This document shows, piece by piece, positions 21,809 through 44,560 of a DNA stretch of 64,000 nucleotides; position 1 is the first letter of the stretch; the number at the start of each line of letters is the position of its first letter. Under the pieces are notes generated by a model. That model saw only the letters and a list, made by a program, of their open reading frames with translations, did no database searches and was not told the DNA's origin. This DNA is from Escherichia coli (GTDB lineage Bacteria; Pseudomonadota; Gammaproteobacteria; Enterobacterales; Enterobacteriaceae), in NCBI RefSeq assembly GCF_044324875.1, contig NZ_CP172185.1. The stretch is one strand, 5' to 3'. The translations under genes were made by a program, and so were the position numbers.

Positions 21809-21896
21809 GGTGAGGTGTCCGAGTGGCTGAAGGAGCACGCCTGGAAAGTGTGTATACGGCAACGTATCGGGGGTTCGAATCCCCCCCTCACCGCCA
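21809..21896 (+). tRNA. serW: tRNA-Ser (anticodon GGA)
   Basis: 88-nt sequence GGTGAGGTGTCCGAGTGGCTGAAGGAGCACGCCTGGAAAG...GGTTCGAATCCCCCCCTCACCGCCA with long variable arm and encoded CCA. Confidence 0.9.
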
Positions 21897-22057
21897 TATT
21901 CAAAGAAGAGCTCGTACGAAAGTGCGAGCTTTTTTTTCGCATATTGCACTCCAGGGGGGATGAGAAGCCCCGACCGGGGTTCGACAACTGGCGCAGCCAG
22001 TTGGACAGACCACGAACACAGTGAGTGGGCTGCCCGCAGGGCGAGCGAAGCGAGTCA

Positions 22058-22112
22058 ATCCCCCCTCACCGCCATATTTAAAGAAAAGCTCGTACGAAAG
22101 TACGAGTTTTTT
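22058..22112 (+). repeat. Direct repeat of the tRNA-Ser 3' end (18 nt) plus its terminator
   Basis: AATCCCCCCTCACCGCCA followed by AAAGAAAAGCTCGTACGAAAGTACGAG+T-run duplicates 21879..21940 with few mismatches. Confidence 0.7.
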
Positions 22113-22416
22113 TCGCATTTTATCTGCCTGTACGGCAGTGAACGGTATAAAAATCGAGTTTTTCTTTCGGTTGGCTTTCTAAGCTGCCTGTACGGCAGTG
22201 AACTCAAATACTACACGTTTAGTCCGTTATTAATAAAGCAAAACCATCTCATTTTCCTGCTACCACCCTTTTTTATCCTTACCTTCCCGCAGCACTAATT
22301 ATCAACAACTTACCATCATCATCAAAAAAAGGGGCTGAACCTCCTCCACCCCATAAACAAAAAGTCCGTAACCTCTTTCGAGATTACGGACTTCACCAAC
22401 CTACCTAACAATTAGA

Positions 22417-42481: not shown

Positions 42482-43177
42482 ATGTTCAGAAAATTAGCAG
42501 CTGAATGTTTTGGTACTTTCTGGCTTGTTTTTGGTGGCTGTGGTAGTGCCGTACTGGCCGCAGGCTTCCCGGAATTAGGCATTGGTTTTGCCGGCGTGGC
42601 GCTGGCATTCGGTCTGACCGTTCTGACGATGGCCTTTGCTGTTGGTCATATTTCTGGTGGTCATTTTAACCCGGCGGTCACTATTGGTTTATGGGCTGGC
42701 GGACGTTTCCCGGCAAAAGAAGTCGTTGGCTACGTAATTGCCCAGGTTGTCGGCGGTATTGTTGCGGCGGCGCTGCTGTATTTAATTGCCAGTGGTAAAA
42801 CGGGTTTTGACGCGGCAGCCAGCGGTTTTGCTTCTAACGGTTATGGCGAGCATTCGCCAGGCGGTTATTCCATGCTTTCCGCGCTGGTAGTTGAACTGGT
42901 ATTGAGTGCAGGTTTCCTGCTGGTGATCCACGGCGCAACCGACAAATTCGCTCCTGCTGGTTTTGCGCCGATCGCTATTGGTCTGGCCTTAACCCTGATT
43001 CACTTAATCAGTATTCCGGTGACTAACACTTCTGTTAACCCGGCGCGCAGCACCGCGGTTGCTATCTTCCAGGGCGGCTGGGCATTAGAACAACTGTGGT
43101 TCTTCTGGGTGGTGCCAATTGTCGGCGGCATTATCGGTGGTCTGATTTACCGGACCCTGCTGGAAAAACGTAATTAA
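42482..43177 (+). CDS. aqpZ: Aquaporin Z
   Basis: 231 aa with two NPA motifs (HFNPAV, SVNPAR). Confidence 0.95.
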
Positions 43178-43186
43178 TTAACGCAG

Positions 43187-43216
43187 AAGGCCTGGCGCAA
43201 TGTCAGGCCTTTTTTA
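43187..43216 (+). terminator. aqpZ rho-independent terminator
   Basis: AGGCCTGGCGCAATGTCAGGCCT hairpin + T-run. Confidence 0.6.
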
Positions 43217-43239
43217 AATATATTTATTCATCTTCCTGT

Positions 43240-43500
43240 TGCGCTCCTTGATGTGTTAAGCCACATATAGTCACTGGCGCAGGGAGCGCGCAGGGGGCGG
43301 CCAATCGCCGCCGCCCCCTGCACCCCCGGGCTCTGGCGAACAAAATCGCCGCTGCGCGGTGCCCTCGACTTATCCCTTGCGGCTACCGGGTCGGGCGCGA
43401 GGTAACATCCCTGTAAAACGCGCCCTCAGCCCACATCCATGTGGGCTGCCCCGGCCTTCAGGGAACGCCTCGGCGATTTTGACGCCACCAACACCGGTGC
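43240..43500. repeat. GC-rich palindromic intergenic element
   Basis: Long inverted repeats (GCAGGGGGCGGC..GCCGCCGCCCCCTGC; GCCCACATCCATGTGGGC) in a ~70% GC segment unlike its surroundings. Confidence 0.5.
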
Positions 43501-43660
43501 GGTTTGTAATTAAAGCGCAAGAATATCTTTAAATGAAAATGAATACCCTACCGATCCTTATGCATAACATTTCCTTTTAATTGCAACTTTACTCGTCCTT
43601 CCGCTTTCAGTAGTGTGTCATCGCGCATTTCGACTTCATCTTTGCAAGGACTGGGTTTTC

Positions 43661-44560
43661 ATGTTTTCTGGGCTGTTAATCATTCTGGTTCCCCTGATTG
43701 TGGGTTACCTCATTCCTCTTCGCCAAAAAGCTGCATTAAGAGTTATTAATCAGCTATTAAGCTGGATGGTTTACCTCATTCTCTTTTTTATGGGTATCAG
43801 TCTGGCGTTTCTCGATAACCTCGCCAGTAACCTGTTGGCGATTCTGCATTATTCCGCCGTCAGCATTACCATTATTTTACTCTGCAATATTATTGCGTTG
43901 TTGTGGCTGGAGCGCGGTCTGCCGTGGCGCAACCACCACCAGCAAGAAAAACTCCCGTCGCGTATTGCGATGGCGCTGGAGTCGCTAAAACTGTGCGGCG
44001 TAGTAGTGATTGGTTTTGCCATTGGTCTGAGTGGACTGGCTTTCTTACAACACGCGACCGAAGCCAGTGAATACACCTTAATTCTGCTACTTTTCCTCGT
44101 CGGTATTCAGTTGCGCAATAATGGCATGACCTTAAAGCAGATTGTCCTTAATCGCCGGGGAATGATTGTCGCCGTGGTGGTGGTTGCCAGTTCATTAATT
44201 GGTGGTTTAATTAACGCCTTTATTCTTGATCTTCCCATCAATACCGCGCTGGCAATGGCCTCTGGTTTCGGCTGGTATTCTCTTTCCGGTATTTTATTGA
44301 CCGAATCTTTTGGTCCGGTAATCGGGAGCGCGGCGTTTTTTAATGATCTGGCCCGTGAGCTGATTGCAATTATGTTGATCCCTGGGCTGATTCGCCGCAG
44401 CCGCTCTACCGCACTGGGCTTATGCGGTGCGACGTCGATGGATTTCACCCTGCCCGTTCTTCAACGTACTGGCGGGCTGGATATGGTCCCGGCGGCAATT
44501 GTTCACGGTTTTATTCTTAGCCTGTTAGTGCCGATCCTCATCGCCTTTTTCTCTGCGTAA
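43661..44560 (+). CDS. lysO: Lysine exporter LysO (YbjE)
   Basis: 299-aa polytopic membrane protein from MFSGLLIILVPLIVGY. Confidence 0.9.
   Translation: MFSGLLIILVPLIVGYLIPLRQKAALRVINQLLSWMVYLILFFMGISLAFLDNLASNLLAILHYSAVSITIILLCNIIALLWLERGLPWRNHHQQEKLPSRIAMALESLKLCGVVVIGFAIGLSGLAFLQHATEASEYTLILLLFLVGIQLRNNGMTLKQIVLNRRGMIVAVVVVASSLIGGLINAFILDLPINTALAMASGFGWYSLSGILLTESFGPVIGSAAFFNDLARELIAIMLIPGLIRRSRSTALGLCGATSMDFTLPVLQRTGGLDMVPAAIVHGFILSLLVPILIAFFSA

What the first reader, a model, noticed from the sequence alone, without database searches (positions are those of the whole stretch)
43240..43500. GC-rich palindromic intergenic element between aqpZ and lysO
A ~260-bp block with long perfect inverted repeats and much higher GC than its flanks, unlike canonical REP/ERIC consensus as I recall them. 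It may be a member of a less common repeat family or a structured RNA, and it could affect lysO expression.
Basis: seen in the sequence. Interest (0 to 1): 0.3.

Follow-up and report, generated by a model that had tools for sequence, protein, structure and literature searches.

The report
Known RRS/TRIP1a repeat beside lysO
The GC-rich palindromic block between aqpZ and lysO is real, but it is the already described E. coli TRIP1a repeat, also called the lysO "replication risk sequence", a DNA element shown to stall lagging-strand synthesis and leave programmed single-stranded gaps.

Summary
Window 43238-43502 is a 62-73% GC block with perfect 12-bp and 10-bp inverted repeats. It folds far better than shuffled sequence and is repeated 1-9 times in 5425 of 5426 complete E. 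coli genomes.

It is not new. Position, length, the short putP-efeU copy lacking about 125 bp, and the dusC-yohP and alx-sstT copies all match TRIP1a-d (Rudd 1999; Li 2024). The published RRS G-quadruplex 20-mer sits exactly at 43308-43327 on the minus strand. This is therefore RRS-lysO (Pham/Cox/Goodman 2023-2026). Those authors showed that it blocks DNA polymerases and causes post-replication gaps, that at least one copy is conditionally essential, and that it affects genome supercoiling.

My additions:
- The G4 strand carries a conserved multi-branched fold: 18 compensatory pairs across Escherichia, Pseudocitrobacter and Klebsiella, and 60 G·U cells against 3 A·C.
- Its core resembles the orphan Rfam motif TwoAYGGAY. 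It scores 29.8 bits against a 43-bit cut-off, and a Pseudocitrobacter sister element that passes the cut-off links the two.
- Natural E. coli carry either orientation at both loci (76/24% at lysO, 63/37% at dusC).

I found no evidence for an effect on lysO expression.

The parts
42482..43177 (+). aqpZ coding sequence (upstream neighbour)
   Evidence: ORF. The K-12 annotation gives the same gene order, ybjD-aqpZ-lysO-hcp.
43187..43217 (+). aqpZ terminator-like hairpin (AAGGCCTG / CAGGCCTT, 9-nt loop) followed by a T run. It is present only in the 'type A' spacer allele.
   Evidence: Inverted repeat I16 and the sequence. It is absent from the type B allele (MS1718). The terminator scan missed it because its loop limit is 8 nt.
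43238..43502 (.). TRIP1a repeat, which contains the 222-bp RRS-lysO element (its exact ends were not fixed here)
   Evidence: Li et al. place TRIP1a (266 bp) 70 bp after the aqpZ stop and 158 bp before the ybjE/lysO start in K-12. The window aligns with K-12 throughout. GC profile. Repeat counts.
43290..43321 (.). Perfect 12-bp hairpin GCAGGGGGCGGC-N8-GCCGCCCCCTGC, with compensatory variants in other copies
   Evidence: I3. GGCGGC/GCCGCC becomes GGAGGA/TCCTCC in dusC copies, and further AU replacements occur in Klebsiella.
43308..43327 (-). Published RRS G-quadruplex motif GGGGGTGCAGGGGGCGGCGG. It overlaps the 5' arm (on the minus strand) of the 12-bp hairpin.
   Evidence: Exact match, the only one in the window, with 0 expected by chance. 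The motif is quoted in PMC10592627.
43322..43448 (.). Inner module of about 125 bp that the short form TRIP1b (putP-efeU) lacks. It is bounded by the imperfect direct repeat CCCCGGGCTCTGGCGAAC / CCCCGGCCTTCAGGGAAC.
   Evidence: Direct repeat D2. Li et al. describe TRIP1b as missing an internal 125 bp.
43328..43494 (-). Multi-branched TwoAYGGAY-like domain, 167 nt, on the G4 strand
   Evidence: Family covariance model R1, 204.1 bits. Rfam RF01731 gives 29.8 bits at 43343-43482 on the minus strand, below the 43-bit cut-off. Covariation.
43427..43448 (-). Hairpin 1. The loop is AUGGAU on the minus strand (ATCCAT at 43435-43440 on the plus strand). The stem covaries and the loop is invariant.
   Evidence: I11. 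CAGCCCAC/GTGGGCTG becomes CGACGCGC/GCGCGGCG (alx copies) and CAGCCCGC/GCGGGCTG (Klebsiella), with the loop unchanged.
43393..43425 (-). Hairpin 2. The loop is AGGGAU on the minus strand (ATCCCT at 43407-43412 on the plus strand), within the context UUACAGGGAUGU.
   Evidence: The outer stem GGGCGCG/CGCGCCC and the closing AC/GU pair covary (GC/GC in Klebsiella). GGA is invariant.
43560..43660 (+). lysO-proximal spacer that is the same in both spacer alleles. It presumably holds the lysO promoter and leader and is not part of the repeat.
   Evidence: Alignment of type A and type B spacers. Promoter assignment is inference only (one search found no strong sigma-70 match).
43661..44560 (+). lysO (ybjE) coding sequence (downstream neighbour)

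Best explanation
The block is TRIP1a, also called RRS-lysO. It is one of two near-identical, inversely oriented GC-rich 'replication risk sequences' that lie about 650 kb either side of dif in E. coli.

Shown by others in K-12:
- When the replication fork unwinds it, the strand carrying GGGGGTGCAGGGGGCGGCGG (the window's minus strand) folds.
- The fold blocks DNA polymerases I, II and IV in vitro and impedes Pol III replication in vivo.
- When that strand is the lagging-strand template, the replisome skips ahead. It leaves a post-replication single-stranded gap of up to about 2 kb, which SSB and RecA fill.
- Deleting or inverting both changes supercoiling across the Ter region.

Shown here:
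- The identity of the element.
- The same strand carries a conserved multi-branched hairpin fold whose pairs are kept by compensatory changes and by wobble pairs that work only on that strand.

Inferred:
- In this window's strain the G4 strand is the lagging-strand template. The gene order matches K-12 and the element has the K-12 (type A) orientation.
- The conserved hairpin fold, and not only the G-quadruplex, contributes to the block.
For: Identity as TRIP1a:
- The position, length and GC content match TRIP1a.
- The other family loci I found independently are TRIP1b (putP-efeU, short form lacking about 125 bp), TRIP1c (dusC-yohP) and TRIP1d (alx-sstT).
- The orientation polymorphism matches. 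I found type B junctions in 1294 genomes and type A in 4120. Li et al. report 1255 reverse and 3448 forward.

Identity as RRS-lysO:
- The published G4 20-mer matches exactly at 43308-43327 on the minus strand.
- In K-12 the G4-strand domain is on the + strand at 915,024-915,190 and on the - strand at 2,229,213-2,229,380. These are the lagging-strand templates of the two replichores, as the paper states.

Mechanism (published):
- Polymerase blocks, ssGap-seq peaks at native and ectopic RRS, conditional essentiality and Psora-seq changes.
- Single-molecule gap formation.

Support from my analysis:
- Both strands fold very stably as ssDNA, the G4 strand more so (-82.2 against -78.6 kcal/mol).
- 75 consensus pairs, of which 18 show compensatory changes.
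- On the 18-sequence set, 99% of cells are paired and 8 pairs are compensatory, against 3.0 in shuffles (0 of 500 shuffles reached 8) and 0-1 in slid controls.
- 60 G·U/G·T cells at 9 pair positions on the G4 strand, against 3 A·C cells at 3 positions.
- Paired columns vary less than unpaired ones (0.31 against 0.59).
Against: - Natural strains often carry the element the other way round: 24% at lysO and 37% at dusC. O157:H7 and E69 are inverted at both loci. In K-12, engineered inversions gave no ssGap-seq peak and altered supercoiling. The lagging-strand G4 arrangement is therefore not universally maintained. However, an inverted RRS still complements the double deletion, and the complementary strand forms gaps at lower frequency in vitro.
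- The G4 motif overlaps one arm of a hairpin that itself shows compensatory changes, so the G4 and the hairpin compete. Which of them blocks the polymerase is not settled by anything I could run.
- The invariant ANGGAN loops suggest sequence-specific recognition, which the gap model does not explain.
- Extra copies (alx-sstT, copA-ybaP, and 13-14 places in a K. pneumoniae chromosome) do not fit a simple picture of 'two sentinels flanking Ter'.
Confidence: 0.85

Rival explanations
1. The element works, also or instead, as RNA. When the G4 strand is transcribed by read-through from a neighbouring gene, its 167-nt core folds as a TwoAYGGAY-type RNA. That fold displays two ANGGAN hexaloop hairpins 28 nt apart, which is the geometry of a dual-site ligand for a CsrA dimer. 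The RNA would then bind or titrate CsrA, or stabilise the 3' end of the upstream mRNA.
For: - Rfam TwoAYGGAY hits fall on the same strand in every Escherichia and Pseudocitrobacter copy scanned: 29.8, 36.6, 31.4, 30.9 and 29.6 bits.
- A sister element in Pseudocitrobacter scores 49.2 bits, above the 43-bit cut-off. My family model finds it full-length at 56.3 bits.
- The loops match the CsrA SELEX consensus RUACARGGAUGU, which has a hexaloop closed by AC/GU and bridges sites 10-63 nt apart. Hairpin 2 reads UUACAGGGAUGU and hairpin 1 reads CACAUGGAUGUG.
- GGA is invariant in all 22 sequences while the stems covary.
- The RMfam authors proposed that TwoAYGGAY binds CsrA.
- Wobble pairs favour this strand, and the RNA consensus fold is better on it (-119.45 against -101.63 kcal/mol).
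- In type B, dusC-yohP and alx-sstT copies, this strand lies downstream of a co-oriented gene with no terminator predicted between them.
Against: - No internal sigma-70 promoter or intrinsic terminator was predicted.
- In 76% of E. coli, including this window, the strand is antisense to both aqpZ and lysO.
- In Potts 2017, ybjE and dusC carry 'No' in all four of the table's Yes/No columns and are listed as not significant. The supplementary files held as text contain no genome coordinates from either locus. Reads from repeats may have been discarded (inference).
- All Rfam scores for E. coli copies are below the cut-off, and the Klebsiella copies gave no hit at E<=0.1.
- G·T wobbles are also tolerated in ssDNA hairpins, so the strand bias does not separate RNA from ssDNA.
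- SELEX ligands favour short stems, whereas hairpin 1 has 9-10 bp.
Confidence: 0.15
2. The family is a selfish, MITE-like or otherwise mobile intergenic repeat. Its structure is kept only because it is needed for the element's own spread, for example through recognition of ssDNA hairpins by a transposase. The copies give the host no benefit.
For: - There are five or more intergenic loci in E. coli and 13-14 places in a K. pneumoniae chromosome.
- Both orientations occur at the same locus, with non-homologous flanks.
- At alx-sstT, K-12 has BoxC-like repeats where other strains have the element.
- Deletion derivatives exist: TRIP1b, a 79-bp deletion on pMTY11352_3, and 11-bp deletions.
- The ends form a weak imperfect inverted repeat (CTTGTTGCGCTCC...AAAGCGCAAG), seen.
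- Klebsiella copies sit between convergent genes in 5 of 5 loci with annotation.
Against: - I found no clear terminal inverted repeats or target-site duplication, and no partner transposase.
- There are no copies in phages or on mobilizable plasmids. Every plasmid hit is typed non-mobilizable, and the plasmid records I opened carry chromosomal genes.
- Orthologous copies keep the fold across species.
- K-12 cannot lose both copies without a compensating amplification.
Confidence: 0.08
3. It is a cis-regulatory element of the neighbouring genes, acting as a lysO leader or attenuator, or as an aqpZ terminator or insulator.
For: It lies in the aqpZ-lysO spacer. In type B strains aqpZ has no terminator hairpin of its own before the element. 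Li et al. speculate about effects on the transcription of neighbours.
Against: The same element sits beside unrelated genes: dusC/yohP, alx/sstT and putP/efeU. Either orientation occurs at the same locus. The constant lysO-proximal 100 bp lies outside it. There is no U-run after any hairpin, and no terminator or promoter was predicted. No riboswitch or leader family matched.
Confidence: 0.03

Closest known systems
TRIP1 repeats of E. coli (Rudd 1999; Li et al. 2024, Genes 15:236, PMC10888264)
   Same: This is the same element. TRIP1a lies between aqpZ and ybjE/lysO, is 266 bp and is 62-65% GC. The short TRIP1b lacks an internal 125 bp. Further copies lie at yohI(dusC)-yohG, alx-sstT and copA-ybaP. 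Direction varies between genomes. A stable 'double-Y' RNA fold was predicted.
   Different: Nothing differs in identity. My analysis adds the covariation and strand-bias evidence, the copies in Klebsiella, Pseudocitrobacter and Citrobacter, and the point that the two orientations come with different flanking spacer sequence.
RRS, replication risk sequences (Pham et al. 2023 NAR, PMC10287960; Pham et al. 2024, PMC10592627; Kusi-Appauh et al. 2026 preprint, PMC13308219)
   Same: This is the same element, RRS-lysO. It has an exact G4 20-mer, the same locus and the same strand relation to replication in K-12. The published function is programmed post-replication gap formation and control of topology.
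   Different: The papers describe two conserved, inversely oriented copies and stress the G4. They do not mention the conserved hairpin fold, Rfam, TwoAYGGAY or CsrA. They do not discuss natural strains that carry one or both copies inverted.
TwoAYGGAY RNA motif (Rfam RF01731; Weinberg et al. 2010, PMC2864571)
   Same: Both have two adjacent hairpins with conserved A-N-GGA-Y terminal loops, enclosed by a long closing stem. Both are multi-copy in some gammaproteobacteria, such as Psychromonas ingrahamii. The hit is on the same strand in every Escherichia and Pseudocitrobacter copy scanned. A Pseudocitrobacter sister element passes the Rfam cut-off and is found full-length by my family model.
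   Different: E. coli copies score 29.6-36.6 bits against a 43-bit cut-off. Loop 2 is AGGGAU or AAGGAC in Escherichia, so it is not strictly AYGGAY; it is ACGGAC in four of the six Klebsiella copies aligned. The element has an extra 3' domain (G-run, 12-bp hairpin and terminal helix). TwoAYGGAY has no known function and is filed as an RNA.
Other enterobacterial intergenic repeats (REP/BIME, ERIC/IRU, BoxC)
   Same: All are GC-rich, palindromic and intergenic, often lie downstream of genes, and vary in presence between strains. At alx-sstT, K-12 has BoxC-like repeats in the same slot.
   Different: The sequence is different. This element is much longer (about 265 bp against roughly 35-127 bp; lengths and from memory). 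Copy number is far lower. The fold is multi-branched rather than a single hairpin.
pilE G4 of Neisseria gonorrhoeae
   Same: It is cited by the RRS authors as the only other bacterial sequence known to trigger gap formation through a G-quadruplex.
   Different: It is an unrelated sequence. It serves pilin antigenic variation, not chromosome topology. I did not test it here.

Membership tests
TRIP1a | Lies in the aqpZ-ybjE(lysO) spacer, 70 bp after the aqpZ stop and 158 bp before the lysO start in K-12; about 266 bp | tested here: met
   The window block at 43238-43502 aligns with K-12 throughout. The only difference is an 11-bp shorter flank on the aqpZ side.
TRIP1a | 62-65% G+C, with a very stable predicted fold | tested here: met
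   GC is 0.62-0.73. RNA ensemble energy is -148.3 kcal/mol on the minus strand, against -143.99 published for TRIP1a.
TRIP1 family | Related copies at putP-ycdN (short form lacking about 125 bp), yohI-yohG and alx-sstT | tested here: met
   The copA-ybaP copy (TRIP1e) was not looked for.
RRS (replication risk sequence) | Contains the G4 motif 5'-GGGGGTGCAGGGGGCGGCGG-3' on one strand | tested here: met
   Exact match at 43308-43327 on the minus strand.
RRS (replication risk sequence) | A near-identical inverted partner lies near dusC, with the pair symmetric about dif (about 650 kb each side) | tested here: met
   In K-12 the domain is on the + strand at 915,024-915,190 and on the - strand at 2,229,213-2,229,380. 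The position of dif is taken from the papers. The window itself does not reach dif or dusC.
RRS (replication risk sequence) | The G4 strand is the lagging-strand template | not testable with these tools
   This holds for K-12 from its coordinates. For the window's strain it is inferred from the shared gene order and type A orientation. The replication direction of the window is not known.
RRS (replication risk sequence) | Blocks DNA polymerases and triggers post-replication ssDNA gaps loaded with RecA and SSB | not testable with these tools
   Experimental results are in PMC10287960, PMC10592627 and PMC13308219. Here I could only compute ssDNA fold stability.
TwoAYGGAY (RF01731) | Score at or above Rfam's gathering cut-off of 43 bits | tested here: not met
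   Window 29.8 bits (E 0.022 in a 1-kb search). Other Escherichia and Pseudocitrobacter copies score 29.6-36.6. Klebsiella copies gave no hit at E<=0.1. The adjacent sister element in Pseudocitrobacter scores 49.2.
TwoAYGGAY (RF01731) | Two hairpins whose terminal loops hold AYGGAY | tested here: inconclusive
   Loop 1 is AUGGAU in all 22 sequences. Loop 2 is AGGGAU, AGGGAC or AAGGAC in Escherichia (a purine at position 2) and ACGGAC in four of the six Klebsiella copies. Some Rfam seed members also have AGGGAU.
TwoAYGGAY (RF01731) | A closing P1 stem, often very long, with stems supported by covariation | tested here: met
   P1 and its extension have 13 or more pairs. There are 18 compensatory pairs over the element.
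High-affinity CsrA ligand | GGA in a hexaloop closed by AC/GU (SELEX consensus RUACARGGAUGU), with two sites 10-63 nt apart | tested here: met
   Sequence level only: UUACAGGGAUGU and CACAUGGAUGUG, with 28 nt between the GGA motifs.
High-affinity CsrA ligand | Binds CsrA in vitro or in vivo | not testable with these tools
   In Potts 2017, ybjE and dusC carry 'No' in all four of the table's Yes/No columns. The supplementary files held as text contain no coordinates from either locus. That is weak negative evidence, because repeats are often masked (inference).

The most novel reading that the evidence does not exclude
The E. coli RRS/TRIP1 elements and the orphan Rfam motif TwoAYGGAY are one family. 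TwoAYGGAY is known from gut metagenomes, Clostridiales and gammaproteobacteria and has no known function. If they are the same, one of two things follows. Either many 'TwoAYGGAY RNAs' are really DNA-level replication-gap elements whose conserved fold forms in the lagging-strand template. Or the RRS also acts through a transcript carrying two CsrA-type GGA hairpins. In either case the conserved covarying hairpin fold and the invariant ANGGAN loops, and not just the G-quadruplex, would be part of how the RRS works.
Probability: 0.4. Interest if true: 0.55.

Novelty: already known. Interest (0 to 1): 0.2.

Why it matters
As a scan finding it is explained. It is the lysO replication risk sequence, a recently characterised chromosome-structure element, and not a new regulator of lysO.

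Three by-products may help people who work on RRS:
- There is comparative evidence for a specific, strand-biased, multi-branched fold with invariant GGA loops. The published G4-centred model does not discuss this fold.
- The link to TwoAYGGAY would extend RRS-like elements well beyond enterobacteria and would give that orphan motif a testable function.
- Natural E. coli lineages, including O157:H7, carry one or both RRS in the orientation that abolished the ssGap-seq peaks and changed supercoiling when engineered in K-12. This offers a natural test of the 'topological relief valve' idea.

Tried and rejected
- **Rfam at gathering thresholds** over the whole window found nothing at the element.
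- **Repeat within the window:** there is no second copy in the 64 kb.
- **K-12 RefSeq annotation** shows no feature in the spacer. That turned out to be uninformative. The K-12 record as held here also listed nothing in the thrC-yaaA region, where I expected an annotated REP, nor over the BoxC-like repeats at alx-sstT.
- **'RSA' repeat:** I suspected from memory that the element was the RSA repeat of Bachellier's survey. Three literature searches found nothing usable, and TRIP1 proved to be the right name.
- **In-place inversion** as the explanation for the two orientations: rejected. The flanks between the element and the genes are non-homologous in the two alleles at both loci.
- **Protein coding:** rejected. 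ORFs are not conserved between copies, and the substitutions are compensatory in stems.
- **Own promoter or terminator:** none predicted.
- **Phage or plasmid carriage:** no phage hits. Every plasmid hit is typed non-mobilizable, and the plasmid records I opened carry chromosomal genes or are whole chromosomes filed as plasmids.
- **Expression and CsrA data:** Term-seq tables and CsrA CLIP-seq and expression tables gave no signal for these loci.
- **The exact 20-mer scan of species-representative genomes** under-reported the range. It missed Klebsiella and Citrobacter, which the blastn search later found.
Full report
**Observation**

- GC is 0.62-0.73 in the 100-nt windows between 43250 and 43499. 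It is 0.43 just upstream and 0.33 just downstream.
- There are perfect inverted repeats of 12 nt (43290-43301/43310-43321) and 10 nt (43427-43436/43439-43448). A 16-nt, 88% repeat spans 109 nt.
- Both strands fold far better than dinucleotide shuffles. As RNA the energies are -144.5 kcal/mol (z -5.98) on the minus strand and -133.7 (z -5.51) on the plus strand. As ssDNA they are -82.2 (z -7.05) and -78.6 (z -6.52).
- The neighbours are aqpZ (42482-43177) and lysO (43661-44560).

**It is a repeat family with a composite anatomy**

The 261-bp block matches 5425 of 5426 complete E. coli genomes, with a median of 3 places per genome and up to 8. The inner 127 bp alone is repeated just as often.

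Following the weaker hits gave these loci:
- putP-efeU: a short form that keeps both ends but lacks about 125 bp.
- dusC-yohP: a full-length copy.
- alx-sstT: short in one genome and long in others. K-12 has BoxC-like repeats in that slot instead.

The short form differs from the long form by a deletion between imperfect direct repeats (CCCCGGGCTCTGGCGAAC / CCCCGGCCTTCAGGGAAC).

Outside E. coli, the family is in E. albertii, E. whittamii, other Escherichia and Pseudocitrobacter. It is also in Klebsiella pneumoniae, K. aerogenes and K. variicola, and in one Citrobacter record, with 13-14 places in one K. pneumoniae chromosome. There are none in phages.

**Orientation polymorphism**

At aqpZ-lysO the element occurs in two orientations, each with its own flanking spacer sequence.
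- Type A is the window and K-12 form and includes an aqpZ terminator hairpin. I found it in 4120 genomes.
- Type B is the MS1718, E69 and O157:H7 form and has no such hairpin. I found it in 1294 genomes.

At dusC-yohP the K-12 type occurs in 3409 genomes and the O157 type in 2002. O157:H7 and E69 are inverted at both loci relative to K-12. E. whittamii and Escherichia sp. E1V33 are mixed. Because the flanks differ, this is not a simple flip in place.

**Structure**

On 18 Escherichia and Pseudocitrobacter copies:
- The consensus fold of the minus strand is better than that of the plus strand (-119.45 against -101.63 kcal/mol).
- 99% of cells pair.
- 8 pairs show compensatory changes, against 3.0 in column shuffles (0 of 500 shuffles reached 8) and 0-1 in slid controls.

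Adding six Klebsiella copies gives 75 pairs, 18 of them with compensatory changes. Among them:
- three in helix P2;
- three in hairpin 1;
- the base and the closing pair of hairpin 2;
- the small hairpin CCGCGCAGCGG, which becomes CCACGAAGTGG;
- four in the 12-bp hairpin and its 3-bp extension.

Wobble pairs fall almost entirely on the minus strand: 60 G·U cells at 9 positions, against 3 A·C cells at 3 positions. Paired columns vary less than unpaired ones (0.31 against 0.59).

The two terminal loops are invariant in GGA: AUGGAU in hairpin 1 and A(G/A/C)GGA(U/C) in hairpin 2.

There are caveats. The sequences are closely related and the independent events are few. The structure was derived from these same sequences. 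Wobble tolerance applies to ssDNA hairpins as well as to RNA.

**Rfam**

Nothing reaches a gathering score at the element. At relaxed thresholds the minus strand hits TwoAYGGAY (RF01731) at 29.8 bits against a 43-bit cut-off, with E = 0.022 in a 1-kb search. Other copies give 29.6-36.6 bits on the same strand. Klebsiella copies gave no hit at E<=0.1.

In Pseudocitrobacter faecalis, the mdlB-glnK spacer holds a second, diverged element next to the family copy. It has the same architecture, and its core scores 49.2 bits, above the cut-off. A covariance model built only from the family (R1, 167 positions) finds that sister element full-length at 56.3 bits, and finds its P. vendiensis counterpart at 54.9 bits. 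E. coli lacks the sister type.

Weinberg's seed alignment shows TwoAYGGAY as a multi-copy sequence in Psychromonas, with some AGGGAU loops. The motif is described as two AYGGAY loops closed by an often very long P1.

**Identification**

A literature search on the old K-12 repeat names settled the matter.

Li et al. 2024 (PMC10888264) describe TRIP1a as 266 bp, 70 bp after the aqpZ stop and 158 bp before the ybjE start. TRIP1b lies at putP-ycdN, is 146 bp and lacks an internal 125 bp. TRIP1c lies at yohI-yohG, TRIP1d at alx-sstT and TRIP1e at copA-ybaP. TRIP1a runs forward in 3448 genomes and in reverse in 1255. They also report recombination between copies that inverts up to 1.3 Mb. All of this matches what I had found independently.

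Pham et al. (PMC10287960, PMC10592627) name the lysO and dusC copies RRS, for replication risk sequences. They state that these appeared in the 1999 screen as TRIP1. Their G4 motif GGGGGTGCAGGGGGCGGCGG matches exactly at 43308-43327 on the minus strand. In K-12 the G4-strand domain lies on the + strand at 915 kb and on the - strand at 2,229 kb. These are the lagging-strand templates of the two replichores, as they report.

**How it works (published; not tested here)**

- The G4 strand blocks Pol I, II and IV in vitro and impedes Pol III replication in vivo.
- With the G4 strand on the lagging-strand template, RRS at native or ectopic sites give RecA/SSB-coated gaps of about 1.4-2.5 kb.
- Engineered inversions give no ssGap-seq peak.
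- Both RRS can be deleted only with a compensating 200-kb amplification, with extra ectopic RRS, or with an inverted RRS in place.
- Deleting or inverting both expands the negatively supercoiled zone across the 1.3 Mb between them.
[quoted passage not shown] The authors propose that the gaps act as topological relief valves at the edges of the Ter domain.

**What my analysis adds, and where it strains the model**

1. The published model centres on the G4. The comparative data show selection for a large hairpin fold on the same strand. This includes the 12-bp hairpin whose 5' arm (on the minus strand) is part of the G4 motif, so the two structures compete. The stable fold computed for the C strand fits the reduced activity reported for it.
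2. The invariant ANGGAN loops look like recognition sites. They match the CsrA SELEX consensus and lie within the spacing that a CsrA dimer can bridge. The RMfam authors proposed that TwoAYGGAY binds CsrA. I found no expression or CLIP support for this and no promoter. I rate the RNA reading at about 0.15.
3. About a quarter to a third of natural E. coli carry an RRS in the orientation that silenced it in K-12, and some lineages carry both that way. The RRS papers I read call the elements highly conserved in sequence and position. The 2024 paper does not mention Rfam, TwoAYGGAY, CsrA or hairpins. I saw no discussion of natural strains with inverted copies in what I read.

**lysO**

Nothing links the element to lysO expression. 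The spacer from 43560 to the start codon is constant between alleles and lies outside the repeat. The same element sits beside unrelated genes. No leader or riboswitch family matches.

**Verdict**

The element is already known as TRIP1a/RRS-lysO, with an experimentally supported function at the DNA level. Interest as a discovery is therefore low. The TwoAYGGAY link and the covarying fold are leads worth passing to people who study RRS.

Noticed in passing
window 21809-22203: tRNA-Ser(GGA) at 21809-21896 is followed by an RtT RNA match (21940-22074, 48.6 bits, above its cut-off). A lone 28-nt match to CRISPR-DR4 lies on the minus strand at 22176-22203 (50.1 bits), with no array around it.
   Followed up: partly
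L009 2150-2420 (Pseudocitrobacter faecalis, mdlB-glnK spacer); L021 5628-5790: A second, diverged element has the same architecture: a closing stem, two GGA-loop hairpins, a G-rich hairpin and a GCGCAA end. It lies back to back with the TRIP1/RRS-like copy. Its core passes the Rfam TwoAYGGAY cut-off at 49.2 bits. It is absent from E. coli.
   Followed up: yes
L005, L012, L024 (aqpZ-lysO type B); L004, L006, L013, L015, L018 (dusC-yohP, O157 type): Natural orientation dimorphism of both RRS loci: 76/24% at lysO and 63/37% at dusC among 5426 complete genomes. O157:H7 and E69 are inverted at both loci relative to K-12. The flanking spacer sequence differs between orientations.
   Followed up: partly
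window 43308-43327 against 43290-43321: The published G-quadruplex motif overlaps one arm of the perfect 12-bp hairpin, and that hairpin shows compensatory substitutions in other copies. The G4 and the hairpin are therefore mutually exclusive folds of the same bases.
   Followed up: partly
L003 2338-2770 (plasmid pMTY11352_3, NZ_CP134387.1): An 88-kb E. coli plasmid carries a ybjD-aqpZ-lysO-hcp segment. Its RRS/TRIP1a has a 79-bp internal deletion that removes both GGA hairpins.
   Followed up: no
L022 3590-3720 (K-12 alx-sstT spacer): K-12 has BoxC-like G-rich repeats (GGGAGAGGGTCGGGGTGAGGG and its inverse) at the position where other strains have TRIP1d. This spacer segment is a replaceable 'repeat slot'.
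   Followed up: no
L008 (NZ_VTVE01000017.1, 'Pseudobutyrivibrio xylanivorans', 432 bp); L019 (NZ_JABWSY010000051.1, 'Bacillus sp.', 583 bp): Tiny, low-coverage contigs in non-enterobacterial assemblies hold E. coli putP-TRIP1 sequence, which is probably contamination. L019 joins a putP-side flank to a lysO-side flank across the repeat, which looks like an assembly chimera or a recombinant.
   Followed up: no
CP125156.1 (5.37 Mb), NZ_CP134663.1 (4.9 Mb), NZ_CP141089.1 (4.9 Mb) in the plasmid collection: Several records in the plasmid collection are whole chromosomes or chromosome fragments, all typed non-mobilizable. Hits to them do not show plasmid carriage.
   Followed up: partly
L020 4755-5379: A tandem run of five above-threshold matches to naRNA4 (the REP-derived nucleoid-associated RNA) at 99-nt spacing, plus weaker ones, in Escherichia sp. 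MOD1-EC7003.
   Followed up: no
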